A stretch of DNA of 64,000 bases from the NCBI GenBank assembly GCA_964356415.1, contig CAYHHK010000002.1, forward strand, positions 13,732 through 77,731. Reading direction: 5' to 3'. The DNA comes from an uncultured Flavobacteriales bacterium (lineage in GTDB: Bacteria; Bacteroidota; Bacteroidia; AKYH767-A; 2013-40CM-41-45). Of the stretch, positions 966 through 59,721 are shown one piece after another. Under the pieces are notes generated by a model. That model searched no databases. It was not told the DNA's origin and was given only the letters and a program-made list of their open reading frames with translations. The translations under genes and the position numbers were made by a program. Numbering within the stretch: the stretch's first letter is position 1; every line of letters starts with the position of its first letter.

Positions 966-1799
966 ATGAAAAATATTTGGAAATACTTGTTTCTTTTATT
1001 AAACACATCATCAACTGCGCAAATTACCCTTGATGCGCAAATAGATTCTTCTGCTTATCCTGCATTGTGGAGGATGGTTCAAATTAGTCCAACAGAAACG
1101 AAATACTTATTCCCTGATACCGTAAACAACACATTTAATCTGCTCAATATGGATTTTACTCCATTTATTTCAAATATTGCAGTGCCTGACCCTTGGGCTT
1201 GGACTACAGTTCAACATTATTCAGTGTATTATATCACTCGTGATTTATTTGATTGTGATACTTCAAATATTGAATTCGTGTTCGCTGCGCCACTTACTGC
1301 ATACAAGCCATTTAGAGTTTTACGGACAGATGGTACTTTATTATTTCAACTCGATAGTGCGATAGCATTTTTTTGCGGTGGAGATTGTGGTAATGGTGGC
1401 AGCGATTGGGTTCCTCCTATTCTTAATACTTCGGCAGGAGCAAAATTAGTGCTTTCTAAATTTAATTCGGGCAATGAAGTGGATTATATCTATTCATTAT
1501 GCGGAACCTTGCCAAACCAGGTATTTGACTTTCCAACTATTTCCCAGTCTTACGTCAGAATATTTCCTAATCCTTCTGCCGGGCTATTGACATTTCAACT
1601 TAATCTGCCTGATAACAGGAATGAATACGAATTGGTAATTCTTGATATCAATGGCGCGGAATTAAAAAGAGAAAAAGTGAATGTGCTAAGCAATACCTTT
1701 TCTATTGATGTAAAAGAATACAGCAGTGGCTCTTATGTTTATTCATTGTGCACAAAAAACAAATCATATCAAAATGGAAAATTTATTATTAATAAATAA
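966..1799 (+). CDS. T9SS C-terminal-domain (type A) secreted protein
   Basis: Signal peptide MKNIWKYLFLLLNTSSTAQ. The C-terminal ~85 aa (IFPNPSAGLLTFQLNL...GSYVYSLCTKNKSYQNGKFIINK) match the Por/T9SS sorting-domain pattern (PNP...G.Y......K....K). Confidence 0.6.
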   Translation: MKNIWKYLFLLLNTSSTAQITLDAQIDSSAYPALWRMVQISPTETKYLFPDTVNNTFNLLNMDFTPFISNIAVPDPWAWTTVQHYSVYYITRDLFDCDTSNIEFVFAAPLTAYKPFRVLRTDGTLLFQLDSAIAFFCGGDCGNGGSDWVPPILNTSAGAKLVLSKFNSGNEVDYIYSLCGTLPNQVFDFPTISQSYVRIFPNPSAGLLTFQLNLPDNRNEYELVILDINGAELKREKVNVLSNTFSIDVKEYSSGSYVYSLCTKNKSYQNGKFIINK

Positions 1800-11271: not shown

Positions 11272-11634
11272 TGGCAGACCAAAGATAGAAAAGTTTATTT
11301 CCGGCTGCTTAGAATGGTTGCTATGAAATAAAGCCCTAAGTGCAATAGCCCTGACAGTAGCGGAAACCCCGAAGAGCGAATGCATGTGCGGATAGCCGGA
11401 GTTGCAGCGCCTGCCTGCCGTTAGCAGGATGGCAGGAAGACAGGTAAATTGAAATGAGACAGCATCGCTCCCAACCTTCGCTCACTCTCCTTCGCTAAAG
11501 CTACGGAAAGCAAAGAGCTACGGGTGGCAAGGATCAACCTTCGCTGAAGCTACGGCTGACAAGGGAAAAATTAAGAATGGATTTCTGAAAAAAATCATGT
11601 AAGTTTGCCGACCTACTTAAACACAAGCACTTGA

Positions 11635-12898: not shown

Positions 12899-15800
12899 TT
12901 ATTCCACCACAATTTTCCGTTGCTCTGAAATATTTTTTCCTTGTATTCTCAGAAAATAAATTCCCGGTTTTGCTTTTCTTAAATCAATTTGCTGATGCCC
13001 GTTTTCATTGGTCAACCGGTCGTTGTAAATAACCTCCCCTATTGAGTTAGTGATAGTAACAGGTGAGCCGACAAATGATTCACCAAAGGAAATATTGAAA
13101 ATCCCATCGTAGCTCGGGTTCGGAAATACATTCATTACATCAGTTGAACCATTTACACCTGCATCATCAGAAAAATTTTCAACTGAATTTCTTGCAGCCG
13201 CTGTACCAGTTGTAAAAGTTGATACAGATGATGTAACTGTATTCACTCCATCACTCACTGTAGTGTACCATTGATAGCAGGTGTTCAGCGCAAGTGAAGC
13301 ATAGGGCATGGAAGAAACGGTTCCTGATGGAACGCCTGTATTTGTTCCGATGAGTGAATATGCCTGTGCAGCCGGTGTCATGTTGTAATTAATCGTAAAC
13401 TGGCTGTTGGCATCGGTTTCATATTGATTCAGCCAGGGTGAAAATGTTTTTACGGAAATTGTATTGTTTGCCGGCGAGAACTTCATGATGCGCATCCATC
13501 CATTACCGCCGTTCGTGCGCGCCTGATAGTCGCTGAGTAAAGTTGTAATTACATTATTCTGGTACACGTCTGTCCGTTTTGCTTCTTCATCCTGGTGTCC
13601 GCACAGCATGAGGAAAACATTCGGATTTGTTTTCGCCATGTTGTAAACAGCGCTTCCCTGTGTTCCCCATGCACTGTCTGCATCTATAAAATAGTGACTT
13701 CCGAGAATAGCTCTTTTGTTGCTATTTGACTGCAATAAATTATTTGCCCATGTCAGCACCGCAGGATCCTGGGTTGGTGAATATTCAAAATTGATTACGA
13801 TGAAATCCATTCCGCTTGCTGAGAAGAGGCAGTAGTTATTGTCGTTACTACTCCCATAATGACCACCATAATAAGGGCGACCGTTGAAACGTGCAGAACC
13901 AAAATACTGGTTAAAATAATTTGTCGTTCCATTTGGATTGCCAACAGGCGACTGGTCATGATTGCCGATATTCATTCCGAAAGGAATGCCAAATGTGAGC
14001 TGTGTAGTAACAGGGTTCTCAATAATTTTTACTGAGGTATCTGCACGTTTCCATTCATTTACATACGTATCGCCATTCTGCACACAATCACCTACTCCTT
14101 CAACGAACACGATGTTATCAGAAACAAGGTGGCTAACAATCCAGTTCATCTGTGACTTGTACATTTCATTGGTGCCGCCATACATCAGCCCGGTATAATA
14201 TTGTGTATCGGGAATTACAATGACTGTGAAATCAGCAGCCGGTGTAGGCGGACAAGGACGTGCGTAATAGGCAACTGTAAGGGCTGTAGCTTCCGGATCA
14301 CTCACTGAAACATTCAGCGAGGTTGATACTGGAACACCGGCTGCATTGTTCAACGGAGAAACAACAACAGGCTGTGCAGGCGGATTGTTAATTACCGGTG
14401 GCGTCAGTGGTGCGCCGGAATTCCAGTACCAGTTGCTGCCTGTAATGGTTCCATGCTTTGCATTGCCGGAACTATCCTTCACAGCAGTGCCGCACCTTTC
14501 GTTCAATCCCCATCGAGCCACCATTCCGGTTTGTGGCGAGTTCAACTGTTGCGACATCGTCGATTGAATAATTGCCTGAGAGCGCGCATTGTTCCAGATG
14601 CGGGCCTCATCAATTGATCCGTTGAAATATCCTGCGGGTGATCCTGATGAATTTAATGCAGAACCCAATGCCGCATGCTGAATACTTGCACTTTGAGGAG
14701 TGCGGTTTACTGTTACTGAGTTTTCCAGATTCCCATTCAGGTATATCTTAAAAACACTGCCGTCATAGGTAAGTGCTGCGTGATTCCATACATTGCCTGT
14801 GATTACGGTTGTTCCATAGATCGGATGATTGAGCCCTGGTGATGCACTGCCCGTCCCTTCTTCAAAATCTCCTGCAAGTTTTCCTGTTGTGCCATCAATG
14901 CCGAGAAAATAATTGCAATCTTTCGTGCTTCCGTCTGCTTCAGATCTTCCTTTCGTCAACAAAGGAATTGCACTTACACCTCCGGAACCCGAACTTGCAG
15001 TTGTTCCTATTCCCTCTTTTCTGAACCATGTTTCTACAGTAAATTGTGAAAGACCCAGCCCTGAAATGTTACCAAACGTCACATATGTATTTGTTCCCCC
15101 AAAATACAAAGAAGCATTTCCTGAAGAAGTGATCGGAGAGAAGGTAGTGCCTGAAATCCAAACTGGGCCATTGGTCAAAATTCCGTTCACTGATGATGCT
15201 GTTCCTGAATTGGCAGTTGCCGTGCCTATACCTTCATTCATTCCCCAATGACCGATGAGACCTGTTGCACTATTAATTTGCAGGGTCATATTTGTCTGTA
15301 TAGTTGCTTGTGACAATGCCGAGTTCCAGATCCTTATTTCATCCATGCTTCCTGCAAAATAACCCGAAGCAACACCTGTTGAATTCAATGCAGTTCCAAT
15401 ACTTGAATGCTGAATTGACAATGACTGTGGAAGCCGACCTACAACAAGTGTTCTTTCAAGATTACCATTCAGGTATAGTTTCCATGTGTTACCATCATAA
15501 GTAGCAGCTGCATGATACCAGACATTGTTACAAATAGTTGTAATTCCCTTCACAGGATGATTTAAGCCGGGACTTGGCTGACCGGTACCTTCTTCGAAAT
15601 CAGCTGCCAAAACATTGGTTGCAGCATCAATTCCAAGGAAATAATTGCAGTCTTTTGTATTGCCATCTGCTTCTCCCCTTCCCTTTGAAACAAGAGGAAT
15701 AGCTGTAAGGCCTCCTGTTCCTGTGCTGGCACTTACGCCAGTACCACTTCGCTTGAACCAGGTTTCAACAGTAAAGGCTGATGCCCGCAATGCTGATGCA

Positions 15801-15922
15801 GAACCATGTGTGACATAGTCATTCGTTCCGTCAAAATTAATTCCATTCTGTGCAAATGAACTCGTTATTCCTCCAAATAGAAGACAAACTAGAATAATGG
15901 TGTGGTGAATGGTGTTTTTCAT
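12899..15922 (-). CDS. secreted LamG x2 (concanavalin-like) + calcineurin-like metallophosphoesterase + T9SS CTD protein
   Basis: Signal peptide MKNTIHHTIILVCLLFGGITSSFAQ. Two ~230-aa internal duplicates (GINFDGTNDYVTHG...CNYFLGID / SLYFGGTNTYVTFG...CNYFLGID). Metallophosphoesterase motifs VIVIPDTQYY, GVGDCVQNGD, NIGNHD and LCGHQDEE. The C-terminal VFPNPSYDGIFNISF...GIYFLRIQGKNISEQRKIVVE is a CTD. Confidence 0.65.
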   Translation of the reverse strand: MKNTIHHTIILVCLLFGGITSSFAQNGINFDGTNDYVTHGSASALRASAFTVETWFKRSGTGVSASTGTGGLTAIPLVSKGRGEADGNTKDCNYFLGIDAATNVLAADFEEGTGQPSPGLNHPVKGITTICNNVWYHAAATYDGNTWKLYLNGNLERTLVVGRLPQSLSIQHSSIGTALNSTGVASGYFAGSMDEIRIWNSALSQATIQTNMTLQINSATGLIGHWGMNEGIGTATANSGTASSVNGILTNGPVWISGTTFSPITSSGNASLYFGGTNTYVTFGNISGLGLSQFTVETWFRKEGIGTTASSGSGGVSAIPLLTKGRSEADGSTKDCNYFLGIDGTTGKLAGDFEEGTGSASPGLNHPIYGTTVITGNVWNHAALTYDGSVFKIYLNGNLENSVTVNRTPQSASIQHAALGSALNSSGSPAGYFNGSIDEARIWNNARSQAIIQSTMSQQLNSPQTGMVARWGLNERCGTAVKDSSGNAKHGTITGSNWYWNSGAPLTPPVINNPPAQPVVVSPLNNAAGVPVSTSLNVSVSDPEATALTVAYYARPCPPTPAADFTVIVIPDTQYYTGLMYGGTNEMYKSQMNWIVSHLVSDNIVFVEGVGDCVQNGDTYVNEWKRADTSVKIIENPVTTQLTFGIPFGMNIGNHDQSPVGNPNGTTNYFNQYFGSARFNGRPYYGGHYGSSNDNNYCLFSASGMDFIVINFEYSPTQDPAVLTWANNLLQSNSNKRAILGSHYFIDADSAWGTQGSAVYNMAKTNPNVFLMLCGHQDEEAKRTDVYQNNVITTLLSDYQARTNGGNGWMRIMKFSPANNTISVKTFSPWLNQYETDANSQFTINYNMTPAAQAYSLIGTNTGVPSGTVSSMPYASLALNTCYQWYTTVSDGVNTVTSSVSTFTTGTAAARNSVENFSDDAGVNGSTDVMNVFPNPSYDGIFNISFGESFVGSPVTITNSIGEVIYNDRLTNENGHQQIDLRKAKPGIYFLRIQGKNISEQRKIVVE

Positions 15923-16625: not shown

Positions 16626-17921
16626 ATGAAAAAAAATCTACTTCTATCCGGTATTTGTTTCTTTTTCTTTCTTCTTCAAAACGCAAATGCACAACCTGCA
16701 GATGCTGAAGTTGCAACCTTTGCATCTCCGGCAAACCTGAACTTCTGTCCTGCACAAATTCCCATCAGCATCAATATTTATAACAACGACCTGGTGGATA
16801 TAACAGAAGTTGTATTGAACTGGAGTATCAACAGTGTTGCGCAGGCACCTGTTACATGGTCGGGTCTGATTGCTGCAGGTGATCTTGCTGCCATCGAACT
16901 GACGCCATCCTCTGATTTTTTAAGCGCTACTACCTACGACATTGAGGTTTCAATTTCTACCGTGAATACACTACCGGATCCTAATTCGGCTAACGACGTA
17001 AACATGGTTTCCTTCTTGGTTTACGAGGTATTTGTTCCGTTATTTTACTGGAATGGCTGCTCACTTGAATGCCTGAATTTTTCAGACTATCTTTCCATTC
17101 AATGGTATAAAGACGGATCACCGGATCCAAATGCCCCGGATTCAGGAATTTATACGCCGTCGCTGCCGGGTTCATATACGATGGTCGGTCTTACTTTTGA
17201 TTCCTGCGATGCAATTGCCGATACTTCCATAGCAGTAAATCCACCAGCACATGGCATTACACCATTGGGAGTTACCTCTTTCTGCGAAGGTGATTCAGTT
17301 GGTCTTGTTTTCTGGGCCAGCGAACAGGTGTTTTATACATGGAATACCGGAAGCAGTGATGACACCATTTTTGCAAGTTTAGACGGATGGTATTCTGTAA
17401 ACGGCCTGACTGTTAATTCCTGTCCGATCATTGACAGTATTCATGTTACAGTACATCCAACTCCGATTGTATCTATTTCTGATATGAATGACACCCTTGC
17501 CTCTACTTATAGCGGATTGCACCAATGGTATCTGAATGGAACCCAGATTGGCGGAGCCCATGATTCAACATATGTTCCAACAGGATCAGGAATCTATTTT
17601 TGTACTGTTACTGATGTCTATGGCTGTACCGGAACATCGAATTCAATCAACTGGATTTTCCCTGGCATCAGTATCCCGGTAACAATCAGTGATGTGATGC
17701 TTTACCCAAATCCTGCGAAAGATGTTGTCTTTATCAAATTTAATTCAAGAAAAGAAAACCTTGAACTGAAAATTTTTGATGCTGTCGGGCGCCTGGTGTT
17801 TAAGGAAATCATCTTTGAAGACACCGCTATCGATATCGCCGGATTGAAGGGTGGCGTTTACCAGTGCGTGTTTACAGGAGAAGGAAAAATGTCTTCACAG
17901 AAACTGGTAAAGACATTCTGA
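16626..17921 (+). CDS. secreted Ig/PKD-like protein with T9SS CTD
   Basis: Signal peptide MKKNLLLSGICFFFFLLQNANAQ. The C-terminal LYPNPAKDVVFIKFNSRKENLELKIFDAVGRLVFKE...GGVYQCVFTGEGKMSSQKLVKTF is a CTD. Confidence 0.6.
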   Translation: MKKNLLLSGICFFFFLLQNANAQPADAEVATFASPANLNFCPAQIPISINIYNNDLVDITEVVLNWSINSVAQAPVTWSGLIAAGDLAAIELTPSSDFLSATTYDIEVSISTVNTLPDPNSANDVNMVSFLVYEVFVPLFYWNGCSLECLNFSDYLSIQWYKDGSPDPNAPDSGIYTPSLPGSYTMVGLTFDSCDAIADTSIAVNPPAHGITPLGVTSFCEGDSVGLVFWASEQVFYTWNTGSSDDTIFASLDGWYSVNGLTVNSCPIIDSIHVTVHPTPIVSISDMNDTLASTYSGLHQWYLNGTQIGGAHDSTYVPTGSGIYFCTVTDVYGCTGTSNSINWIFPGISIPVTISDVMLYPNPAKDVVFIKFNSRKENLELKIFDAVGRLVFKEIIFEDTAIDIAGLKGGVYQCVFTGEGKMSSQKLVKTF

Positions 17922-19941: not shown

Positions 19942-20616
19942 TCACTCTCTGAAAAATTTGCTCACCACATGCGATCCGTCTTTATTGATCACATCTATAA
20001 AATAAAGTCCACTGCTGAATGACCTGATATCTGCCTCATTAATGGCTTTCCTGTAAAATAGCAATTCAGCTCCAATTGCATCAAATATCCTTACCTGTTC
20101 AACTTTTTCAGAATCAGTCCATACAATGTGGATAATTCCACCGGATGGATTGGGATAGATAAATAGAGCCTGCTGCCGTTCATTCTCTTCAATTCCTGTA
20201 TTCAGGAAGAAAACATTAAAAGTCAAAGAATCATTGTTGACTGCCAGTGGGCTCTGTGCAGAAGATGGCCATACCACAACAATATTATCACCTGCATCAA
20301 GCTCTGCAGCATTGAAGGTATGTGTAATCTGAATAGTATCATAAAAGGTATTCCCTGAAATACTGTAGGTCGCATTGAAATACAACGTGTCGGCCCCTGT
20401 AGAATCACCAAGAGAATGCATTAATACCAGCAAATCTCCACTGAAAAGGAATCCTCCTGAATTACTTATTAAGAGTTCCATGCTCACAACCTGCTGTTGA
20501 AATACAGTATCAGGAAAGCCAATAATGGAATCAAGTCTCAGTGTTTGGGCATTAACGCTTTTTGAATTGATGAAAACGGAAGCCAACAGTGTCAGGATTA
20601 AAAGTATCTTCTTCAT
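19942..20616 (-). CDS. small secreted protein with T9SS CTD
   Basis: Signal peptide MKKILLILTLLASVFINSKSVNAQ. The C-terminal LFIYPNPSGGIIHIVW...GLYFIDVINKDGSHVVSKFFRE is a CTD. Confidence 0.55.
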   Translation of the reverse strand: MKKILLILTLLASVFINSKSVNAQTLRLDSIIGFPDTVFQQQVVSMELLISNSGGFLFSGDLLVLMHSLGDSTGADTLYFNATYSISGNTFYDTIQITHTFNAAELDAGDNIVVVWPSSAQSPLAVNNDSLTFNVFFLNTGIEENERQQALFIYPNPSGGIIHIVWTDSEKVEQVRIFDAIGAELLFYRKAINEADIRSFSSGLYFIDVINKDGSHVVSKFFRE

Positions 20617-24212: not shown

Positions 24213-27200
24213 ATGAAAAATACAACATTATTTAAGGCACTAATGTTTATTGCTCTATTAGCAACATCTCAAATTTCATTTGCACAAACAGTTATTATTT
24301 CACCTACAGGAGATGGTGGTTTCGAAACGGGAACCACCTTTGCCGCAAATGGGTGGACGGCAGTAAACAGCGGTTCCGGTAACCAATGGTTCTGCAGTAA
24401 CTTTGTTGCATCTGCCGGGGCCCGGTCGGCCTATGTGAGCAGCACAGCCACCGGTACAAGTAATAATTATAGCAACTGGAGTCTTTCCAATGCAACACGT
24501 GTTCAGCATTTTTACAGAAATGTAAATTTCCCTGCCGGAGAAACTTCCATTACTCTTAATTTTAAATGGAGGTGTAATGGTCAATCAGGATCTGATGACA
24601 TTAAAGTCTTTTTAGTTCCCACTACAACAACGCCGGTTGCAGGTACTGCTTTGCCCGGGGCAAATCAAATTGCCGGTCCGTATACAGGTCAAAGCTCTTA
24701 TCAAACGGTTTCTGTTACACTTAGCGCTGCTTTGGCCGGTACCACACAGCGACTGGTTTTCAGCTGGAGAAATAACAATGATTTTAGTGGTTCGAATCCT
24801 GCGGGTTCATTTGACGAGATTTCATTGACTTCATGCACCCCACCTTCTGTTTCAGCATCTAATAATGGCCCCTTGTGCGCAGGTAGTAACTTAGATCTTA
24901 GTTCAACTTCGTCAGCCGGGACTTTTTCTTGGACCGGTCCAAATGGGTTCACCTCTTCATCTCAAAACCCTACTATCAGTTCAGCAACGGCTGCTGCCAG
25001 CGGAACGTATACAGTAATAGCAACATCAGGTGGTTGTTCGGCTTCATCCACAACAAATGCAACAGTAAACGCAACAACATCAATCTCAGCACATCCCGCT
25101 GTTCAAATAAAGTGCGAAGGAGCAAATGCTACTTTTTCTGTTACAGCATCAGGTACATCGGTTACGTATCAATGGCAGGATAATTCCTTAGGAAGTTTTG
25201 CTGATATCGCAGGAGCAACTTCATCTTCACTTGTCGTAAACGGAGTAACGCTTGGTATGAGCGGAACATTATACCAATGCATCGTTTCAGGATCCTGCGG
25301 TGTCGTAAATTCTAATAGCGCAGCACTTACTGTAAATCCTGTACCCGTAGTTAGCGCTTCATCCAGTCCTGTCAATGGAGTCATCTGTGGTACAGGCTCA
25401 GCCACTCTTACTGCATCAGGCGGAACAACATATAGTTGGAATCCCGGTGGCTCAACCAGTGCCTCGATTTCTGTTTCACCATTAAGCACTACAACTTATA
25501 CCGTTACAGGAACAACCAATGGCTGTTCTGCAACTGCATCTCAGGCAGTAACAGTATATCCGGCAGTTACTGCGCTAGCATCCGCATCATTGTCAACTTT
25601 GTGCCAGAACGGGAATACAGATCTTACGGCAGCCGGCGGTAATTCAACCAATTACTCTGTTACCTCAATTCCATACAGTTCTCCACTTGGTTCAGGGTCA
25701 AGTGCAACGAGTGGCGATGATGCAGTATCAGGTTCAATTGCATTGCCATTTACTTTCAGTTTCTATGGAGTAAACTACAACAATCTTTATGTTTATACCA
25801 ATGGCTTTGTACAGTTAGGTACCAGTTCATCATCAACAGGTGTGTATGGTCAAACGCTACCCTCTGCCACAAATCCCAACAATATCATTGCCGGTGTACT
25901 TTCCGATCTGAATGCCAATGCGAATACGATCACAACTTTTTCTACCGGTTCAACTCCAAACAGGGTATTTACAATTTACTATAATAATGTGGCGTTTTAT
26001 TGTTCAGGAACCGGTGGCGGCTGTTCAGGAAATAAACGCGGAAATGTTAATTTCCAGATTCGTCTCTATGAAAAATCAAACATCATAGAAGTTCACATGA
26101 ACAATCTCACTAACAGTTCTTCAACATCAGGTGCTTTGAAAACCATGGGAATTGAAAATACAAATGGTACCTCAGCCAAAGTTCCCGCTGGCAGAAATGG
26201 CAGTGATGGTAACTGGACTGTTTCTACCCCTGAAGCATGGCGTTTTACACCTAATGGTGGAACGCTTACATATTCATGGTCTCCGTCAACTTACCTTACC
26301 AACGCATTAATTTTGAATCCTACTGCGCAGAACATGCAGTTAAGCCAAAACTACGTTGTGACTGTAACTGACCAAAACGGATGCTCAGCTGCATCAACTG
26401 CTGCTGCGATCAATGTAAATCCACTCCCTACTGTTGCCGTTACTCCGGGCAGCGCAACTGATTTTTGTGCCGGAGGAAATGTTACCCTTACGGCAACAGC
26501 AGGTCTCTCATCCTATTCATGGAATACTACACCGGTACAAACGACACAGAGCATTAATGTAAATTCACTGGCAACTTATTCGGTCACAGGAACTGATGCA
26601 AACGGATGTTCCAATGTTGCCTCACAACTTGTTACAGTTTATGATACGTTACCGGCAAATATTACAGTAATTGGCAGCACCAATCTTTGCACCGGACAAA
26701 CAACGACTGACCTTCAGGCAACACAAAACAACGCTGTCAGCTATGTATGGAACACTACTGAACCGACTTCACTAATAACAGTTGCTACATCAGGCAACTA
26801 TTCTGTAACCGCAACAGATAATTTCGGATGTCTGCATCATCAGTCGCAGGCAATCACTGAAACAGCGCCACCGGCAGCTCCAATAGTGGTTCCTGCAGGT
26901 TCTACCGTTTTATGTTCAGATGGAATTACTACAACAAGTGTTGTTCTCAATACAACAAATTATTCCAGTGATCTCCTTTGGAGCACAAGCGAAACCACAA
27001 CAGGCATCAGTGTTGACTATGCCGATATTTTTACGGTAACCTATACTGATGCAAACGGTTGTTTTGCCACTTCAAATTCAATCAGCACTGAGGTAAGGGA
27101 TTACTCCCTTGACCCTTCAACAGCTTTAAACAACTCAGCCTATGGTGAGATCTGCAACGGAACACCTGCTTCACTAACTGTGAATGGAGGTACTCTTGCA

Positions 27201-28991
27201 ATTGATGCGAGTTGGGTATGGTACGAAGGTGGATGTGGCAGTGGAGCATCTGTTGCAATGGGATCGACTGCAACGCCAATTCCTGTAGGTGGAGGTGTTC
27301 ATACATATTATGTAAGAGCTGAAGGTTTTTGTAATGTAACAAACTGCGTACCTGTTACAGTATTGGTAAAGACTTCAGCACCGACCTCCAGTGTGAGTAC
27401 ATTAACAGCGCCGGTATCTGCGTGCACAGGAAATACTGCTGCCTTAACAGTTAATACTGTTTCAAATGCAACTTATTATTCTTGGAGCGGCCCTGCGGGA
27501 ATCTTGTTTGATGGCTTACCAGGACCGTATCAAACGACTTCAACAGGTGTTACCTCCACATTCGGCGCACTGCCAGGATCATCAGGATACAGCATATGTG
27601 TTTTTGGCGGTAACGCCTGCGGTCAAAGTAATACCATTTGTAAATGGGTACGCGCAAAAGTTTCAACACCGGGTCCAATTGCAGGTAGCATCACAGGTTG
27701 CCCGAATATGAGCTCAGGCTACAGCGTTTCTCCTGTTGCAGGTGCTGATACTTATACATGGACTGTGGTTGGAAATGATGCTACTTTAAATGGTACTGCA
27801 GTCATCACGATTACAACTCCTACTCCAAATGTAACAGTAGATTTCGCTGCACCATTTATTGGCGCAACGCTGCAGGTATATGCTTCATTAAGCTGCGGCT
27901 ACAACAGTTCACCAAGGAGTATTTCAATAAGCCGCACACCAGCCGTTCCGGGAGCAATGACAGGAAATTCTTATGTTTGTCCTTCAACCAGTGCAGTTTA
28001 TTCCATTCCAACGGTAAACGGAGCTGCAACCTATAACTGGGTTTGCTCAGTACCGGGTGCAGTAGTTAGTCCTGCCGGTAATAGTGCCAGTATTTTCTTC
28101 CCGACAACAATCCCGGCTGGTTCCTCAGTTTGTGTTACTGCATTAAGTGCATGTGGATTTGCAAGCATTACAAGATGCAAGGGTATTGCAACCGGAATGC
28201 CAAATACGCCTTCGAATATTTCAGGACCAGCTTTGGGACAGTGTGGACAAACCGGAGTTTCATTCTCAATACCACCGGTAAGTAGTGCAACATCTTATCT
28301 GTGGACAGTTTCAAATGGAAGTGCATCCATTTCAGGACCAAATAACCTCAGTTCAGTATCAGTAGATTTTACAGGAAACCTAAATACTGTTACCCTTTCA
28401 GTTTCTGCAGGAAACAGTTGCGGAAACAGCGGAATACGTAGTCTTTCAATTCTTGGTAAGCCCGGAACTCCGGCTGCCATCTCAGGAAACAATTCAGTGT
28501 GCAATGGATCTGTTGAAAGTTATATGACAACGGGTTCTACCGGAGCAAATCTTTTAACATGGTCTGTTCCACCAACTGCATCAATCCTGGGAGGACAGGG
28601 ATCGAACAACTTGCTGGTACTCTGGGGAAGCGGTGGCGGTCAGCTAAAGGTATATGCAGCCAACGATTGTGGTAATTCTGCGAATACAATATTGCCGGTT
28701 ACAATTACATGCAGACAATCTCAATTACAAAATACAATTGAAAGCGATGTAAAGGTTTATCCGAATCCGGCACATGATAAGATGAAAGTTGAGATTAATT
28801 CCCTTACATCTGATCGCGTAGCAATTGATCTTATAAATACCCTTGGTGAAATTGTTTACCGTTCTGAAATGAACATTCATGAAGGCACTAACCTTCTTGA
28901 ATTGAACCTGGAAAACATGGCCAAAGGTTTTTACAACCTATCCATACTGGGAACCTCAGTTAATTCTCAACATCGTGTTGTGGTGGAATAA
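24213..28991 (+). CDS. giant (1592 aa) Ig-like-repeat surface adhesin with T9SS CTD
   Basis: Signal peptide MKNTTLFKALMFIALLATSQISFAQ. At least 12 ~80-aa repeats (…C.G…L.A.GG.TYSW.P…TYTVTGTD.NGC…). The C-terminal KVYPNPAHDKMKVEINSL...GFYNLSILGTSVNSQHRVVVE is a CTD. Confidence 0.7.
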   Translation: MKNTTLFKALMFIALLATSQISFAQTVIISPTGDGGFETGTTFAANGWTAVNSGSGNQWFCSNFVASAGARSAYVSSTATGTSNNYSNWSLSNATRVQHFYRNVNFPAGETSITLNFKWRCNGQSGSDDIKVFLVPTTTTPVAGTALPGANQIAGPYTGQSSYQTVSVTLSAALAGTTQRLVFSWRNNNDFSGSNPAGSFDEISLTSCTPPSVSASNNGPLCAGSNLDLSSTSSAGTFSWTGPNGFTSSSQNPTISSATAAASGTYTVIATSGGCSASSTTNATVNATTSISAHPAVQIKCEGANATFSVTASGTSVTYQWQDNSLGSFADIAGATSSSLVVNGVTLGMSGTLYQCIVSGSCGVVNSNSAALTVNPVPVVSASSSPVNGVICGTGSATLTASGGTTYSWNPGGSTSASISVSPLSTTTYTVTGTTNGCSATASQAVTVYPAVTALASASLSTLCQNGNTDLTAAGGNSTNYSVTSIPYSSPLGSGSSATSGDDAVSGSIALPFTFSFYGVNYNNLYVYTNGFVQLGTSSSSTGVYGQTLPSATNPNNIIAGVLSDLNANANTITTFSTGSTPNRVFTIYYNNVAFYCSGTGGGCSGNKRGNVNFQIRLYEKSNIIEVHMNNLTNSSSTSGALKTMGIENTNGTSAKVPAGRNGSDGNWTVSTPEAWRFTPNGGTLTYSWSPSTYLTNALILNPTAQNMQLSQNYVVTVTDQNGCSAASTAAAINVNPLPTVAVTPGSATDFCAGGNVTLTATAGLSSYSWNTTPVQTTQSINVNSLATYSVTGTDANGCSNVASQLVTVYDTLPANITVIGSTNLCTGQTTTDLQATQNNAVSYVWNTTEPTSLITVATSGNYSVTATDNFGCLHHQSQAITETAPPAAPIVVPAGSTVLCSDGITTTSVVLNTTNYSSDLLWSTSETTTGISVDYADIFTVTYTDANGCFATSNSISTEVRDYSLDPSTALNNSAYGEICNGTPASLTVNGGTLAIDASWVWYEGGCGSGASVAMGSTATPIPVGGGVHTYYVRAEGFCNVTNCVPVTVLVKTSAPTSSVSTLTAPVSACTGNTAALTVNTVSNATYYSWSGPAGILFDGLPGPYQTTSTGVTSTFGALPGSSGYSICVFGGNACGQSNTICKWVRAKVSTPGPIAGSITGCPNMSSGYSVSPVAGADTYTWTVVGNDATLNGTAVITITTPTPNVTVDFAAPFIGATLQVYASLSCGYNSSPRSISISRTPAVPGAMTGNSYVCPSTSAVYSIPTVNGAATYNWVCSVPGAVVSPAGNSASIFFPTTIPAGSSVCVTALSACGFASITRCKGIATGMPNTPSNISGPALGQCGQTGVSFSIPPVSSATSYLWTVSNGSASISGPNNLSSVSVDFTGNLNTVTLSVSAGNSCGNSGIRSLSILGKPGTPAAISGNNSVCNGSVESYMTTGSTGANLLTWSVPPTASILGGQGSNNLLVLWGSGGGQLKVYAANDCGNSANTILPVTITCRQSQLQNTIESDVKVYPNPAHDKMKVEINSLTSDRVAIDLINTLGEIVYRSEMNIHEGTNLLELNLENMAKGFYNLSILGTSVNSQHRVVVE

Positions 28992-36779: not shown

Positions 36780-36866
36780 TGAGATGAAGTGATTTGGAAA
36801 TTAAAAATTAGATAAAATTCGTATTTAGTAGAATACTATCTTCGCGCCTCAAAATTTTTAGACTAA

Positions 36867-37959
36867 ATGACAATCGTACAATTAAAAGATTTAAAGGAGC
36901 GTATTGAAGCCCTGAGGGGGTTTCTTTGACGTAGAGGGAAAACTGAAAGCAATCAAAGAGGAAGAGGATAAATCCCATTCGCCTGATTTCTGGAATAATC
37001 CAAAGGAAGCAGAAAAATTACTCAAAGGAATCAAGCAAAAGAAAAACTGGACTGTTGCATTTAACGCATTGAATAGTTCTTATGAAGACCTCAGCGTACT
37101 ATTTGACTTTTTAAAAACAGGCGACACTTCAGAAAAAGAAGTGGATGAACACTATGTTCAAACCTTGAAACTTCTTGATGATCTGGAGTTCAAACGAATG
37201 CTTGGAGGTGAAGAGGATCAGCTGAATGCCATCCTCAATATCAACAGTGGTGCAGGCGGAACTGAAAGCCAGGACTGGGCTGATATGCTCATGCGCATGT
37301 ATATTATGTGGGGCGAGAAAAATGGTTACAAAGTTGTTGAAGTCGATAAACAGGAAGGTGAAGCGGCAGGGATAAAGTCCGCAACGCTTGAATTCACCGG
37401 TGATTTTGCTTACGGATATCTCAAAGCTGAAAGCGGAGTCCACAGACTTGTCCGTATTTCTCCTTTTGATTCAAATGCCAAGCGGCATACTTCCTTTGCT
37501 TCTGTCTTTGCTTATCCCGTTGTTGATGATACCATAGAAATCGAGATCAAAGATGCAGACCTTGAAGTCCAGACTTCCCGCTCCGGAGGTGCCGGCGGAC
37601 AGAACGTAAACAAGGTTGAAACCAAGGTTCAGATGAAGCACTTACCTACAGGTATTGTTGTCGTTTGCCAGGTAGAGCGCTCGCAAGGCGGCAATAAGGC
37701 ACGTGCTTTGAAAATGTTGAAGTCACAGTTGTATGAATTGGAACTACGGAAACGCAATGATGCAAAAGCTGTAACAGAAGCAGGGAAGAAAAAAATCGAA
37801 TGGGGTTCTCAGATACGTTCTTACGTTTTTCATCCGTACAAAATGGTGAAAGACCTGCGGACTGATTATGAGACCAGCGATGTTCAGGGCGTGATGGATG
37901 GTGACCTGAATGAGTTTATGAAGGCGTATTTGATGGAGAATGCGAGTACGAAGGTGTGA
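36867..37959 (+). CDS. prfB: peptide chain release factor 2 with programmed +1 ribosomal frameshift
   Basis: Frame 0 runs 36867..36926 ([20 protein letters not shown]) and ends at CTT TGA C (36924-36930), preceded by an SD-like AGGGGG. The +1 frame 36928..37959 continues [13 protein letters not shown]... The SPF, GGQ ([11 protein letters not shown]) and peptide-anticodon regions of RF2 are present. Confidence 0.9.
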
Positions 37960-43533: not shown

Positions 43534-43604
43534 TTGAAAGTAAATTGAATGGCAATAATAGAAAGAAAAACTCAACTGAGACACAAACTTTTCTATTCGG
43601 TACT

Positions 43605-43652
43605 GGCTCAGTTTGAGAGATTCCTCTCTTGCCTGAGGCGAGAGAGGAATGA
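43605..43652. repeat. hairpin-containing short dispersed repeat, copy A
   Basis: GGCTCAGTTTGAGAG-ATTCCTCTCTTGCC-tgag-GCGAGAGAGGAAT is a 13-bp stem with one G.U. It is related to 61036..61100. Confidence 0.6.
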
Positions 43653-43705
43653 TAGACTATAAATTGTGTTTGTCCACAAATTACTACTACCTTGAGTATT
43701 TTTTC

Positions 43706-45202
43706 ATGCGATACTTGCTTTTAATATTCCTACTCACTTCTGTTTTCTCGCAAGGGCAAAACAGAAATAACATTTGGTGCTTCGGCGATAGTGCAGGAAT
43801 TGATTTTAATATACTTTCAAATCCTCAATCAATTTCTACTTCTTTGCGCACCCGTGGAAGTTCATGTTCAATTGCTGATACGGCAGGTAATTTACTTTTC
43901 TATGCCAATACGAGAGCAGGAATAATTGGGAATACTACTTTAGTATGGAATAAGAATCATCAGCATATGCAAAATGGAGATTCAATAGTAGGTGAAGGAT
44001 GGTATTATGAATTAATTATTACTCCCAATCCTGCCAATAATCATACTTATTATCTCTTTACAGTCGGGGTAACAAGCAGCGGCGATCAAGGCTTGTATTA
44101 TTCTCAAATTGACATGAATCAAAACGGTGGGCTTGGTTCAGTTGTGCAGAAGAATATTATGCTTTTAAGCGATCCTTCCTCAGATAACATTTCTGCTATT
44201 AAGCACGGCAATGGCAGAGATTGGTGGATTTTTTTTAGAAAAAGGACCACACCAATCAATGAATTCTATTCATACTTGATTTCTCCGTTTGGAATTCAAT
44301 GACCTAATATTCAGACAATAGGCAGCGTAAGTAATTCAAATGTATTAAGGCAAGTATTTTCTTACAAGGGAGACAAATTACTTTCTGTAAATTATGCAGG
44401 ACTAATAGAACTTTATAATTTCGACAGATGTACAGGTGTAATAAGTAATCCTGTAACCATTCAACCGGAAACATGTTGCCCTTACCCCCATTATGTAAGC
44501 GCCTCTTTCTCGCCAAATGGAAATAGAATTTATGTTTGCAATAATGATCAGGATAGCTGTTTTTTATTTCAATTTGATCTCTCAGCCCCAAACATTCTAA
44601 ACAGTAAAGACACAGTTTGGATTTTTACGAATCCTCTTGCTTACTATCCTTTAGGCGTTACAAAATTAGCTCCAGACGGTAAAATTTATGTTGCGACCGG
44701 TTACTACAATGGTGTGCAGAATTTTTATCCTTATGCAGACAGTATGTATAACTACATCAATATGAATTTAAGCGTTATCAACTATCCTGATTTACTCGGT
44801 TCATCCTGCGATTTTCAACCTTTCAGTTTTAATTTAGGGGGCAAGCGTGCTTATTATGGTTTACCAAACAATCCCGATTATGATCTAGGTCCAGACACAG
44901 GAAGCGTATGCGATACTGTAATTTTTATTGGAACAAATGAAGTACAAAAATCAATAAGCACTTTCAATACTTTTTATCACTCGGGTTGGCATACCACCTT
45001 CATCAACGCACAAGGACTGCAAGGAAATAATTATTCACTAAGCATTTTTGACATCACGGGTAAACAACTATTTTCAGAACAAGGAAAACTTGCTTCACAA
45101 TATTTCACAAAAGATTTACCGTGCAACTTCGCAAATGGAATCTACATCATTTCACTTAGCACAGAAAAAGAAAAACTAACAGGGAGATTCATCATTCAAT
45201 AA
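43706..45202 (+). pseudogene. T9SS cargo gene interrupted by a single in-frame TGA (44300-44302)
   Basis: One continuous frame from 43649/43706 to 45202; I hand-translated 44303-44713 and found no other stop. Signal peptide MRYLLLIFLLTSVFSQGQ. C-terminal CTD …YSLSIFDITGKQLF…NGIYIISLSTEKEKLTGRFIIQ. Confidence 0.55.
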
Positions 45203-45224
45203 AAATCATTTAAGGGAGACTTAC

Positions 45225-45362
45225 ATCAGCAAATTACCGCTTGATTATAATGCAAGTCAGAAAATAATCTCTGTCGAGAATATTTCTCAGGGACTATATC
45301 TGTTCAACATCATTCAATCTGGCAATATGATCTCATCGGGCAAGTTTAGTGTCGTACACTAA
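45225..45362 (+). pseudogene. vestigial start-less T9SS CTD fragment immediately 3' of an intact CTD
   Basis: The +1 frame encodes ISKLPLDYNASQKIISVENISQGLYLFNIIQSGNMISSGKFSVVH*, which matches the distal CTD strands. There is no start codon and no upstream coding. Confidence 0.4.
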
Positions 45363-45857
45363 AATATGCACACTTATTATTTCTTTACTACTACCCATAC
45401 TTGAGGATTGTTAATAAAAGAATTACATGAAAAACCTCATTTCCCTGAATATCCTCGGATAAAACTCATAGCAAAAATTCCTATCCTCTCGCAATCCTGA
45501 AACTTCACACCGGGATGGGAATCTTTACAACTCAAACTGATGTACCTCTTATCCATTCTCCCGACGAGTTACAAAATTGCAAGATTTTAATTTATAGTAT
45601 ATTTACTTCCTGTTTAAGTACCTGAAAATTTTTCTGATTGTTTCAGCAACCATATCAATTGCTGCAAATACAATAAAAGAATCTGAAGCAGGCATTCTTT
45701 ACAGGTAGATTCAAAAATGAAACTTCAACACCAAAAATAATAAGAACAAGTATTCCGGGACGGGATTCAACCAATGCATACATACTTTATTTTTTTTCAG
45801 GTATGGAATCAGCATTAACATGACCTCTTCAGCCGGATTTTTAATTCCCGTAACTCT

Positions 45858-57979: not shown

Positions 57980-59521
57980 TCAATATTTAATAATTTTCTT
58001 GTTTACACGCATAGATTCTGATGTGATGGTTAGCTGGTAAACTCCGGAAGGAATATCTGACAAATCAATTTCAAGATCATTGGTTATTTCATTTTCAAAA
58101 ATTTTCCCTCCGGTTAAATTGAAAATGGTGAGTAATGATTTTGTTTGATCATTGATCTGAATTAAGATTTTATTTTGAAATGGATTTGGAAAAATCGATA
58201 TTTCATTGGTCATATTTTCATCCTTTTTAAGAATAAGACACAAATCATTAGAGACCGGATTTACGGAAGCAGAAATCGTATTGCTATCACTTATGAGTGT
58301 ATAATTTATAACAGGATAGAGGGACCAACTATTGCTGAAGGCCAACGGATCTGTCGAAGAATACAACGCAAATGCCGAATCAACAACGGAACAGGAATTT
58401 AACAGGGAATCAAACACCATGATACCCGGATAATATTGTGTCCCCGAATGTAAAGTGACCGAACAAAAAATATAGCCATTCCTGTAATTCATGTCAGTAG
58501 GCCTGATATTGTAGCTCATTAACGGATCCACCCATTTTTTAGCCATTAGGATTGTTCCTGTGCTATCCAATTTGATGGTTATTTTGGCGGCAGGCCAGCT
58601 GTCGCCAAAAAATTCACCTATCAGGTAAATGTTGCCAGAGTTGTCACAAGTAACAGCGTTTACTGCATAGCCGGTATCAGGAAATACAGTGGAATAAATT
58701 AATTTCTGCCATAGTATGGTGCCATCCTCCCTGAATCTTGATAATCCAATATGCCAATCTGAAACAGGCCAGATACCATCAGGAGAAGTATTGCACACTG
58801 CGAGATAAGATGAGTCCGGGAGTGAAATAATATTTTGCGTCTGAACCGTATTACCCATATCAAGATACACTGATTGGCTTGCAGTATCTACAGACCCGTC
58901 AGATTTCATTTTCACAATGTTTTCTTCATACCCTATCCCGATATGTTCGTATAAGAAAAATGCCCCGCTATTTAAACATGAATAACCGTGAGATATATAA
59001 CCGTTTGTCCACATTATAGAATTGGGATCGCACCAGCTGCTGATGTAATTTCCAGAAGTATCCAACGTTAGCATTGCACTGAAACCATCCGTTCCTGTGG
59101 TTAGATTAAACTGTGTTGAAGTAATGAAAATGCGATTCTTGTTTACCACCACGCCCGCTATGCCATTGAAATTGCCATTATAAAGCGGACACACACTGGC
59201 GGTTATGTCCCTTGACCAGATTGTATTTCCCAGGCTGTCCGTCTTAAAAATACCGCTGTATGAATTCCATATGAACTTAAAAAAATACAATGCATTGTCA
59301 TCAACCGCTATCAATCTGTCAGAACATGCCTTGCTCCACATAATATTTCCGAGGTAATCCGTTTTTATCAGTTTATTATTTGCCTGAAAATAAATATTAT
59401 CATGATCAAATACTGTTGAGGCATACTGGTCATTTTCAAATAAGTAAAATGAAGCAGGGACTTGTGCAAATGATGCTGATGAAACCACCAGGTAAAAAGC
59501 AACCAGAAAATATTTTTTCAT
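57980..59521 (-). CDS. secreted beta-propeller-like protein with T9SS CTD
   Basis: Signal peptide MKKYFLVAFYLVVSSASFAQ from the internal ATG at 59521. The C-terminal ISIFPNPFQNKILIQINDQ...GVYQLTITSESMRVNKKIIKY is a CTD. Confidence 0.6.
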   Translation of the reverse strand: MKKYFLVAFYLVVSSASFAQVPASFYLFENDQYASTVFDHDNIYFQANNKLIKTDYLGNIMWSKACSDRLIAVDDNALYFFKFIWNSYSGIFKTDSLGNTIWSRDITASVCPLYNGNFNGIAGVVVNKNRIFITSTQFNLTTGTDGFSAMLTLDTSGNYISSWCDPNSIMWTNGYISHGYSCLNSGAFFLYEHIGIGYEENIVKMKSDGSVDTASQSVYLDMGNTVQTQNIISLPDSSYLAVCNTSPDGIWPVSDWHIGLSRFREDGTILWQKLIYSTVFPDTGYAVNAVTCDNSGNIYLIGEFFGDSWPAAKITIKLDSTGTILMAKKWVDPLMSYNIRPTDMNYRNGYIFCSVTLHSGTQYYPGIMVFDSLLNSCSVVDSAFALYSSTDPLAFSNSWSLYPVINYTLISDSNTISASVNPVSNDLCLILKKDENMTNEISIFPNPFQNKILIQINDQTKSLLTIFNLTGGKIFENEITNDLEIDLSDIPSGVYQLTITSESMRVNKKIIKY

Positions 59522-59721
59522 AGAATCGTATTTTTGCCGGAAGAAAAGAATCCGATCCATTACTTTCCCGTTTTTTTGGTGAGTATCCTGTTTTATCATG
59601 TCAACAGTGAAACTACAGTTGTAACCGGTAATCACTGACATCCCATTATACCAATCCGGCTGTTCATCTTCAATTCTGATAGGTAGCGGGATTCAAATCA
59701 ACTAATTTCCAAATCCTCTTA

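What the first reader, a model, noticed from the sequence alone, without database searches (positions are those of the whole stretch)
43649..45362. T9SS cargo locus caught in decay or recombination: in-frame TGA plus a start-less duplicate CTD just downstream
The frames 43649..44302 and 44714..45202 in the ORF track are one and the same frame. The only interruption is TGA at 44300-44302 (context GIQ*PNIQ). The N-terminus has a signal peptide and the C-terminus a complete CTD.

Immediately after the stop, a different frame (45225-45362) encodes another CTD-like tail (...ISQGLYLFNIIQSGNMISSGKFSVVH*) with no start codon. Tandem CTD remnants suggest that cargo genes in this genome exchange or duplicate 3' sorting cassettes. 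The TGA indicates either a recent pseudogenisation or a sequencing error.
Basis: seen in the sequence. Interest (0 to 1): 0.55.

Follow-up and report, generated by a model that had tools for sequence, protein, structure and literature searches.

The report
Recently broken secreted-protein gene plus remnants
A gene for a secreted beta-propeller protein in an uncultured Bacteroidota bacterium was recently inactivated by one real G-to-T change that creates a stop codon, and it lies in a 2-kb inserted stretch beside leftovers of two other genes; this is ordinary gene decay, not a new mechanism.

Summary
43706-45202 is one reading frame for a ~498-aa T9SS cargo protein: signal peptide, beta-propeller and a type A C-terminal sorting domain (CTD). 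Its only interruption is TGA at 44300-44302.

- **The stop is a point mutation.** Homologues have Gly at that position, and the closest orthologue (87% nt) has GGA, so the change is G to T.
- **The stop is not a sequencing error.** Three other assemblies carry the same TGA. They are 99.97-99.99% identical to the window but differ from it by SNPs.
- **UGA is an ordinary stop here.** Eleven other window ORFs end in TGA. The RF2 gene has its canonical CTT-TGA-C frameshift site. There is no SECIS-like hairpin.
- **The mutation is recent.** dN/dS against the orthologue is 0.10 (0.13 after the stop), there are no indels, and there is no excess of changes on the window lineage.
- **The downstream tail is a remnant of another gene.** 45225-45362 is a genuine 3' half of a type A CTD, but it is not a duplicate of the adjacent one. 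It belongs to another CTD subfamily (...SSGKFSVIH).
- **The block is an insertion.** Gene plus tail is a ~2-kb insertion relative to related genomes, which have a small c-type cytochrome gene there. In the window that gene is also a wreck.

Decay is supported; exchange of 3' sorting cassettes is not. Ordinary.

The parts
43706..45202 (+). T9SS cargo pseudogene: signal peptide, beta-propeller body and type A CTD. It would encode 498 aa and is interrupted once.
   Evidence: There is a single frame with one stop. More than 2,800 homologues of ~500 aa align end to end. The orthologue in L001 is 87% nt / 89% aa identical with no indel. An AF2 model of orthologue P0002 (pLDDT 89.6) shows a propeller over aa ~24-400 and a CTD sandwich over aa 418-497; the Foldseek top hits are YVTN propeller, PorZ and lactonase-like propellers.
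44300..44302 (+). Premature stop codon TGA at codon 199, in the middle of the propeller. It derives from GGA (Gly) by a G-to-T change.
   Evidence: L001 has GGA at the homologous codon. The closest homologues have Gly there (GIQGP; more distant ones have Asn, Ser, Thr or Lys). TGA is present in L006, L007 and L008.
43706..43750 (+). Predicted Sec signal peptide (MRYLLLIFLLTSVFS), followed by a Gln that is conserved in 90% or more of the family.
   Evidence: Read from the sequence. Q18 is nearly invariant in the alignment. Residues 2-13 of the orthologue model form a helix. No signal-peptide predictor was run.
44996..45199 (+). Complete type A C-terminal sorting domain of the pseudogene (aa 431-498).
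   Evidence: TIGR04183 scores 34.4 bits against a cut-off of 23. PF18962 scores 24 bits, E = 4.9e-5.
45225..45362 (+). Orphan 3' half of a type A CTD from a different gene (subfamily ending ...SSGKFSVIH). It has no usable start codon.
   Evidence: It matches TIGR04183 profile positions 38-71 of 72 at 14.3 bits. phmmer against 1.8 billion representatives gives C-terminal end-to-end matches to P0125, P0130, P0131 and P0132 (48-50% identity, E from 2e-6 to 8.5e-4), and all four pass TIGR04183. At the DNA level it is 72% identical to the 3' end of the P0132 gene in L010. It resembles no CTD in the window.
43575..45574 (.). Insertion of ~2.0 kb relative to related genomes. It holds a left spacer with a hairpin, the cargo pseudogene, the orphan CTD tail and a 212-nt spacer.
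   Evidence: blastn of the window against L005 and L004 shows homology ending at 43574 (L005) and resuming at 45575. These 2,001 nt correspond to 37 nt in L005. G+C is 0.36-0.39 against 0.41 for the window.
45610..45740 (+). Remnant of a small c-type cytochrome gene (PF02276 family in relatives). Codons 1-22 remain with ATG replaced by CTG, and the last 12 codons remain in another frame. About 116 codons have been deleted.
   Evidence: L004 and L005 carry an intact 150-aa gene here. tblastn finds only aa 1-22 at 45610-45675 and aa 139-150 at 45702-45737.
43620..43650 (.). Inverted repeat with 15-nt arms, 93% complementary, in the left spacer of the insertion. It may be a terminator carried in with the insert.
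   Evidence: the repeat finder pair I8. The function is inferred only.
43681..43703 (+). Junction motif TTACTACTACC..CTTGAG just upstream of the cargo start codon. A second copy lies at 45385-45412, after the orphan tail.
   Evidence: Repeat D14. In local alignment, 5 of 500 shuffles reach the score under one scoring scheme and 21 of 300 under another. Suggestive only.

Best explanation
This is a recently inactivated gene sitting in a small gene graveyard.

**What the lineage did.** The lineage acquired about 2 kb between a TPR-protein gene and the alpha-2-macroglobulin gene. Close relatives have only a 150-aa c-type cytochrome gene at that spot. The acquired DNA came from an array of T9SS cargo genes of the kind seen in related genomes. 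It carried one complete gene for a beta-propeller protein with a signal peptide and a type A CTD. It also carried the last ~45 codons of a different CTD-bearing gene.

**What broke.**
- The resident cytochrome gene lost its start codon and ~116 internal codons.
- The propeller gene then acquired a single G-to-T change that turned Gly codon 199 (GGA) into TGA.

**Consequence.** UGA is a normal stop in this organism, so translation ends in the middle of the propeller. The product would be a 198-aa fragment that can be exported to the periplasm but has no CTD and cannot be passed to the T9SS. The 3' two-thirds of the gene, including the CTD, is no longer expressed as part of a secreted protein.

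**Shown:** the single stop, its GGA ancestry, its presence in several assemblies, normal UGA usage, the insertion relative to relatives, the identity of the tail and the cytochrome remnant.

**Inferred:** the order of events, the donor array, and the fate of the truncated product.
For: - **One frame, one stop**.
- **A point change from Gly.** The closest homologues have Gly at the site, and the orthologue L001 has GGA.
- **A real stop.** TGA is present in L006 (ENA ERZ4201064), L007 (SRR24858484) and L008 (ERR3856788). These are 99.97-99.99% identical to the window but differ from it at 45460 and/or 46382, so at least three haplotypes or assemblies agree.
- **No intact allele on record.** Nothing closer than 88% identity is found among 5.8 billion protein clusters.
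- **UGA is a stop.** Eleven other window ORFs end in TGA. prfB has the canonical CTT TGA C +1 frameshift site at 36924-36930.
- **No recoding signal.** The 64 nt from the stop onward fold worse than shuffles (-3.9 kcal/mol, z = +1.28), and there is no Rfam hit.
- **Recent.** dN/dS is 0.10 overall, 0.066 before the stop and 0.127 after it. There are no indels in 1,497 nt. After the stop there are 13 window-derived against 18 L001-derived replacements.
- **Insertion and cytochrome remnant:**
- **Tail identity:**
- **Tandem arrays are usual for this family.** L015 has two paralogues head to tail with a 0-nt spacer. On P0002's contig the gene is preceded by another CTD gene, as it is in L001.
Against: - No reads were available, so a minority intact allele within these populations cannot be excluded.
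- L006 and L008 share both SNPs and may come from the same reads, so independent support amounts to two or three data sets, not four.
- All TGA-bearing assemblies are nearly clonal, so the presence of the TGA says nothing about selection for it.
- The 3' part shows no sign of relaxed constraint. This fits a very recent event but would equally fit a gene that is still expressed by read-through.
- The direction of change (insertion here rather than loss elsewhere) rests on parsimony over four related loci. One of them (L011) lacks both the cytochrome and the cargo gene.
- No donor locus was found with the exact order cargo, then tail-type gene.
Confidence: 0.82

Rival explanations
1. Sequencing or assembly error: the true codon is GGA and the gene is intact.
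For: It is a single-base difference from the orthologue's GGA. The rest of the gene is flawless and under purifying selection.
Against: The same TGA is in three other assemblies from at least two sequencing projects. They differ from the window at other positions, so they are not copies of one consensus. A G-to-T substitution outside a homopolymer is not a typical systematic error.
Confidence: 0.03
2. The gene is still functional through translational read-through of a leaky UGA-C stop, or through another recoding event. This would give a low level of full-length cargo, with Trp, Cys, Arg or Gly at position 199.
For: The stop is followed by C (TGAC). From general knowledge of E. coli, not tested here, that is a weak termination context. 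The 3' part shows no decay: dN/dS is 0.127, with no indels.
Against: There is no SECIS-like or other stable structure downstream and no Rfam element. Homologues have Gly, not Cys or Sec, at the site. UGA terminates 11 other ORFs, and RF2 is present with its autoregulatory site. The lack of decay is expected anyway if the mutation is recent.
Confidence: 0.06
3. Cassette exchange: cargo genes in this genome swap or duplicate 3' CTD cassettes, and the tail is the displaced former CTD of this same gene.
For: Two CTD-coding stretches lie 22 nt apart on the same strand. A short motif, TTACTACTACC..CTTGAG, flanks the unit of gene plus tail, with 5 of 500 shuffles reaching the score.
Against: - The tail is not similar to the adjacent CTD or to any of the eight others.
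- The orthologue L001 and all family members carry the same family-typical CTD (...FANGIYIISL.TEKE...) as the window gene. No swap has therefore occurred in this gene.
- The tail's relatives sit on a different gene type, P0132-like.
- Homology with L001 runs 11 nt past the stop, so the gene's own 3' end is native.
- The flanking motif is not significant under a second scoring scheme, with 21 of 300 shuffles reaching the score.
Confidence: 0.05
4. The arrangement is ancestral, and relatives lost the cargo gene rather than this lineage gaining it.
For: The spot is variable. L011 has neither the cytochrome nor the cargo gene.
Against: L004, L005 and L012 span TPR-protein identities of 70-83% and all have the cytochrome gene at this spot; L004 and L005 have it intact, directly next to the TPR gene, with no trace of the cargo gene, while L012 is cut by its contig end after cytochrome codon 36. 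The window's orthologue in L001 sits in an unrelated context.
Confidence: 0.08

Closest known systems
T9SS type A CTD cargo proteins (TIGR04183 / PF18962 Por_Secre_tail), for example the numerous CTD proteins of Bacteroidota
   Same: It has an N-terminal signal peptide, a passenger domain and a ~70-aa C-terminal beta-sandwich sorting domain that passes TIGR04183. Eight other such genes lie in the same window.
   Different: The reading frame is broken at codon 199, so the CTD can no longer be attached to an exported passenger. The passenger is an uncharacterised beta-propeller with no Pfam family of its own.
Beta-propeller surface or periplasmic proteins (YVTN propeller of the archaeal S-layer protein 1l0q; PorZ 5m11; lactonase-like 3u4y, 3fgb, 4qrj)
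   Same: The predicted fold of the passenger domain matches these, with Foldseek E from 6e-11 to 1e-7.
   Different: Sequence identity is only 10-14%. There is no evidence for shared function. PorZ is a T9SS component, whereas this family is a multi-copy cargo family.
Ordinary bacterial pseudogenes and gene remnants (a single nonsense mutation; 3' gene fragments left by deletion)
   Same: There is one nonsense substitution relative to intact orthologues, a start-less 3' fragment of a neighbouring gene, and an internally deleted resident gene.
   Different: Nothing essential. The only special point is that three decayed genes lie within 2.3 kb, at an insertion site.
Programmed UGA recoding (prfB +1 frameshift, selenocysteine, genetic codes 4 and 25)
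   Same: An in-frame TGA inside an otherwise conserved gene, with Gly in homologues. Gly is what code 25 would insert.
   Different: There is no slippery CTT-T or SD-like context and no SECIS. RF2 is present, and TGA is used as a stop throughout the window.

Membership tests
T9SS type A CTD cargo (TIGR04183): the main gene 43706-45202 | A domain at the extreme C-terminus that scores above the curated TIGR04183 cut-off | tested here: met
   34.4 bits against a cut-off of 23, over aa 431-498 of 498. PF18962 scores 24 bits, just under its cut-off of 27.
T9SS type A CTD cargo (TIGR04183): the main gene 43706-45202 | An N-terminal Sec signal peptide | tested here: inconclusive
   MRYLLLIFLLTSVFS|QGQ has the n/h/c layout, and the following Gln is conserved in 90% or more of the family. 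No signal-peptide predictor was available.
T9SS type A CTD cargo (TIGR04183): the main gene 43706-45202 | An uninterrupted ORF joining signal peptide, passenger and CTD | tested here: not met
   TGA at codon 199, reproduced in three other assemblies. The gene is a pseudogene of the family, not a functional member.
T9SS type A CTD cargo (TIGR04183): the main gene 43706-45202 | T9SS machinery (PorK/L/M/N, SprA, PorU/V) encoded in the genome | not tested
   Only a 64-kb window is available. Eight other window ORFs pass TIGR04183, which implies that the organism uses a T9SS.
T9SS type A CTD: the orphan tail 45225-45362 | A score above the TIGR04183 cut-off | tested here: not met
   14.3 bits, E = 0.03, covering only profile positions 38-71 of 72. 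PF18962 scores 15.5 bits.
T9SS type A CTD: the orphan tail 45225-45362 | Significant end-to-end homology to the C-termini of proteins that do pass the model | tested here: met
   P0125, P0130, P0131 and P0132 match at 48-50% identity, with E from 2e-6 to 8.5e-4 against 1.8 billion sequences. The alignments end at the last residue. All four pass TIGR04183 at 27-33 bits.
Pseudogene (recent) | Disruption relative to intact orthologues, reproducible in independent data | tested here: met
Pseudogene (recent) | Relaxed selection or secondary lesions downstream of the lesion | tested here: not met
   dN/dS after the stop is 0.127 and there are no indels. There are 13 window-lineage against 18 L001-lineage replacements. 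The event is therefore very recent, or the gene is still read.
Selenoprotein / UGA recoding | A SECIS hairpin just 3' of the UGA, and Cys or Sec at the site in homologues | tested here: not met
   The MFE is -3.9 kcal/mol, weaker than shuffles. The closest homologues have Gly at the site, and none of the 18 aligned has Cys.
Alternative genetic code (4 or 25) | UGA not used as a stop, and RF2 absent | tested here: not met
   Eleven other ORFs end in TGA. prfB is present with its CTT TGA C autoregulatory site.

The most novel reading that the evidence does not exclude
The spot between the TPR and A2M genes is a recombination hotspot. T9SS cargo genes move as cassettes bounded by a short conserved junction motif (TTACTACTACC..CTTGAG). 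Copies of this motif flank the unit of gene plus tail, and it resembles the sequence just after the stop of tail-type genes in other genomes. Under this reading, the orphan CTD tail is a scar of a site-directed cassette insertion or tandem duplication, rather than of random deletion.
Probability: 0.06. Interest if true: 0.5.

Novelty: new member of a known kind. Interest (0 to 1): 0.14.

Why it matters
It matters little beyond annotation.

- The two ORFs 43649-44302 and 44714-45202 should be annotated as one pseudogene.
- 45225-45362 is a gene fragment, and 45610-45740 is a cytochrome gene remnant.
- The locus shows how CTD-only mini-ORFs and split 'Por_Secre_tail' proteins arise in metagenome gene catalogues. 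Here the gene callers produced 111-aa and 146-aa proteins.
- The underlying ~500-aa propeller-plus-CTD family is large (more than 2,800 homologues), often tandemly duplicated, and has no family model for its body. It may deserve one.

Tried and rejected
- **Exact look-up of the truncated products.** The 198-aa and 217-aa proteins are not on record. The source-like contigs were found through the neighbouring redoxin gene instead.
- **Word-indexed homology search with the 60-aa tail.** It gave no candidates. The exhaustive phmmer search was needed.
- **Exact-pattern scan of JGI metagenomes** for the TGA site with N at the variable base. It gave no match, so no intact allele was found there.
- **The tail as a copy of a window CTD.** Rejected.
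- **DNA self-similarity of 45203-45857 to the rest of the window.** Only chance-level hits.
- **The 11-nt direct repeat TTACTACTACC as a target-site duplication.**
  - Four other exact 11-mers recur in the same 2.5 kb.
  - Shuffle tests give 21 of 300 and 5 of 500.
  - It is kept only as a suggestion.
- **Extension of window/L010 homology past the tail's stop.** Marginal, with 27 of 500 shuffles reaching the score.
- **Flanks of the orthologue contig L001.** They match nothing in the window.
- **Recoding.** SECIS or other RNA structure and Rfam families gave nothing.
- **Solved structures by sequence.** There is no hit for the family body; the one weak match (E = 0.024, 8glk_D) covers only the CTD stretch.
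- **Literature search** for T9SS cargo pseudogenes or CTD exchange. Nothing relevant.

Full report
**1. What is in the sequence**

Translating 43649-45205 in one frame gives a single internal stop, TGA at 44300-44302, in the context GIQ*PNIQ. The frame then ends at TAA 45200-45202. The two mechanical ORFs 43649-44302 and 44714-45202 are therefore one gene.

The true start is ATG 43706 (MRYLLLIFLLTSVFSQGQ...). All homologues begin there, and DNA homology with the closest orthologue starts at 43690.

The C-terminus (aa 431-498) passes the TIGR04183 type A sorting-domain model at 34.4 bits, against a cut-off of 23.

Twenty-two bases after the stop, another frame (open over 45180-45362) encodes ...YISKLPLDYNASQKIISVENISQGLYLFNIIQSGNMISSGKFSVVH*. 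Its only in-frame start codon lies 11 codons before its stop.

**2. What the gene is**

The repaired protein has more than 2,800 homologues of about 500 aa. These are nearly all annotated only as 'T9SS type A sorting domain-containing protein' from uncultured Bacteroidia. No Pfam family covers the body.

An AlphaFold2 model of the intact homologue P0002 (64% identity) has a mean pLDDT of 89.6. It shows a beta-propeller over residues ~24-400, followed by a CTD beta-sandwich over residues 418-497. Foldseek against the PDB returns generic propellers: the YVTN S-layer propeller 1l0q, PorZ 5m11, and the lactonase-like 3u4y and 3fgb. Sequence identity to these is 10-14%.

Codon 199 lies in the middle of the propeller.

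Paralogues occur head to tail in other genomes. In L015 two copies are separated by 0 nt.

**3. The TGA**

In the alignment, the closest homologues have Gly at the site (GIQGP). The closest orthologue was found on Logan contigs L001 and L002. It is 86.9% identical at the nucleotide level and 89.4% at the protein level, with no indel in 1,497 nt. It has GGA where the window has TGA. The difference is a single G-to-T change.

*It is not an error.* I looked up the neighbouring redoxin gene and recovered four contigs from other assemblies:
- L006, ENA ERZ4201064
- L007, SRR24858484
- L008, ERR3856788
- L009, SRR24858483

They are 99.97-100% identical to the window. The three that reach the site all carry TGA, yet they differ from the window at 45460 and/or 46382. 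In those assemblies the gene callers split the gene into 111-aa and 146-aa products. No intact allele closer than 88% identity exists in the 5.8-billion-cluster protein database. None was found in JGI metagenomes either.

*It is not recoded.*
- Eleven other ORFs in the window end in TGA.
- The RF2 gene is present with its canonical CTT TGA C +1 frameshift site at 36924-36930.
- The RNA downstream of the stop folds worse than shuffled controls.
- Rfam finds nothing.
- The closest homologues have Gly at the site, and none of the aligned sequences has Cys.

*It is recent.*
- Nei-Gojobori dN/dS against L001 is 0.10 overall, 0.066 before the stop and 0.127 after it, at dS of about 0.58.
- I polarised the differences with 17 other homologues. 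After the stop, the window lineage has 13 derived replacements and the L001 lineage 18.
- No decay has accumulated.

**4. The second CTD**

On its own the tail only reaches 14.3 bits on TIGR04183, covering profile positions 38-71 of 72, with E = 0.03. It resembles no CTD in the window. The adjacent one matches at 32% over 37 aa with E = 2.7, and the best match of all has E = 0.04. It is therefore not a duplicate.

An exhaustive phmmer search of 1.8 billion representatives found P0125, P0130, P0131 and P0132. They are 48-50% identical, with E from 2e-6 to 8.5e-4. The alignments run to the very last residue...SSGKF(S/N)(V/I)(I/V)H. All four pass TIGR04183.

The tail is therefore the genuine C-terminal half of a type A CTD of a different subfamily. 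That subfamily is carried by a different kind of gene, exemplified by the 446-aa P0132. At the DNA level, 45289-45362 is 72% identical to the 3' end of that gene in L010.

In L010 and in L016-L018, such genes are followed at once by a distant (32-33%) paralogue of the propeller family. The two gene types are therefore habitual neighbours in cargo arrays.

The window gene itself has the family-typical CTD, shared with L001 and all other members. Homology with L001 runs 11 nt beyond its stop. No cassette swap has occurred in this gene.

**5. The surroundings**

Three genomes carry orthologues of the upstream TPR protein.

In L005 (a Lac Pavin MAG, 84-90% nt identity in the flanks) and in L004, the TPR gene is followed by a 150-aa c-type cytochrome gene of family PF02276. 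The 2,027-aa alpha-2-macroglobulin gene comes next.

Alignment shows that homology with the window stops at 43574 and resumes at 45575. Two thousand and one bases in the window correspond to 37 bases in L005. This inserted block contains:
- a 105-nt spacer with a 15-nt-arm hairpin
- the cargo pseudogene
- the orphan tail
- a 212-nt spacer

Just beyond the block, the cytochrome gene survives only in pieces. Codons 1-22 remain (45610-45675, with ATG replaced by CTG). The last 12 codons remain (45702-45737) in another frame.

Among metagenome relatives, L012 also has the cytochrome gene, and L011 has neither gene. The spot is variable, and parsimony favours an insertion in the window lineage.

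The orthologue in L001 lies in an unrelated context, downstream of another CTD gene.

**6. Mechanism**

The best account is ordinary decay. A piece of a cargo-gene array was inserted next to the TPR gene. The resident cytochrome gene and the second array gene were reduced to fragments by deletion. Most recently, a G-to-T nonsense mutation cut the propeller gene in two.

The expected product is a 198-aa exported half-propeller without a CTD. That product would be invisible to the T9SS.

The steps shown, and the steps only inferred, are listed under the best explanation.

A short motif, TTACTACTACC..CTTGAG, occurs both before the cargo start codon and after the tail. Both copies align weakly to the sequence after the P0132 stop in L010. 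The shuffle tests are marginal: 21 of 300, 5 of 500, 19 of 500 and 27 of 500. I record this as a lead, not a finding.

**7. Verdict**

The decay reading is right, the sequencing-error alternative is excluded, and the idea of CTD cassette exchange or duplication is not supported. A fresh nonsense pseudogene beside two gene remnants at an indel site is commonplace in bacterial genomes. Interest is low.

Noticed in passing
window 36864-37959 (+), site CTTTGAC at 36924-36930: The RF2 gene (prfB) has the canonical programmed +1 frameshift. [20 protein letters not shown] is followed by TGA, and the reading continues in the +1 frame as [13 protein letters not shown]... for 343 codons. It is the only functional in-frame TGA seen in the window.
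   Followed up: yes
window 45610-45740 (+): This is the remnant of a 150-aa c-type cytochrome gene (PF02276 family) that is intact in the relatives L004 and L005. The start codon ATG is replaced by CTG, about 116 codons are deleted internally, and the two remaining pieces are in different frames.
   Followed up: yes
L010 1166-3269; L016 4683-6619 (also L017, L018): A gene pair recurs in these loci. A gene ending in a ...SSGKFSV/I-x-H type A CTD is followed at once, with overlapping stop and start, by a distant (32-33%) paralogue of the propeller family. In L016 that 482-aa paralogue has no CTD. Both downstream genes carry a palindrome, CTTGTGAG...CTCACAAGG, inside the signal-peptide coding part. 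In L016-L018 the upstream gene is itself split into 102-aa and 78-aa calls, so it may be frameshifted.
   Followed up: partly
L015 8001-11000: Two paralogues of the propeller-CTD family (P0014 of 492 aa, and a 506-aa protein) lie head to tail with no spacer. They are in the same MAG that gave L003.
   Followed up: partly
L001 2455-3951: The orthologue's ORF is intact for 498 codons from ATG 2455. The catalogued protein P0001 starts at an internal Met and is only 411 aa, which looks like a gene-calling artefact.
   Followed up: yes
window 45460 and 46382: These are the only differences between the window and the other assemblies over 6-20 kb. At 45460 the window has T and L006 and L008 have A. 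At 46382 the window has A and L006, L007 and L008 have G. The population is nearly clonal across samples.
   Followed up: yes
window 43620-43650: A near-perfect inverted repeat, ATTCCTCTCTTGCCT / AGGCGAGAGAGGAAT, with a 1-nt loop lies in the spacer left of the cargo gene. It is absent from L005. Its function is unknown, and it may be a terminator carried in with the insert.
   Followed up: no
window 966-1799, 1821-4208, 9760-11385(-), 12899-15922(-), 16626-17921, 19942-20616(-), 24213-28991, 57980-59641(-): Eight intact ORFs have C-termini that pass TIGR04183 (27.8-51 bits). That is about one T9SS cargo gene per 8 kb in this window.
   Followed up: partly
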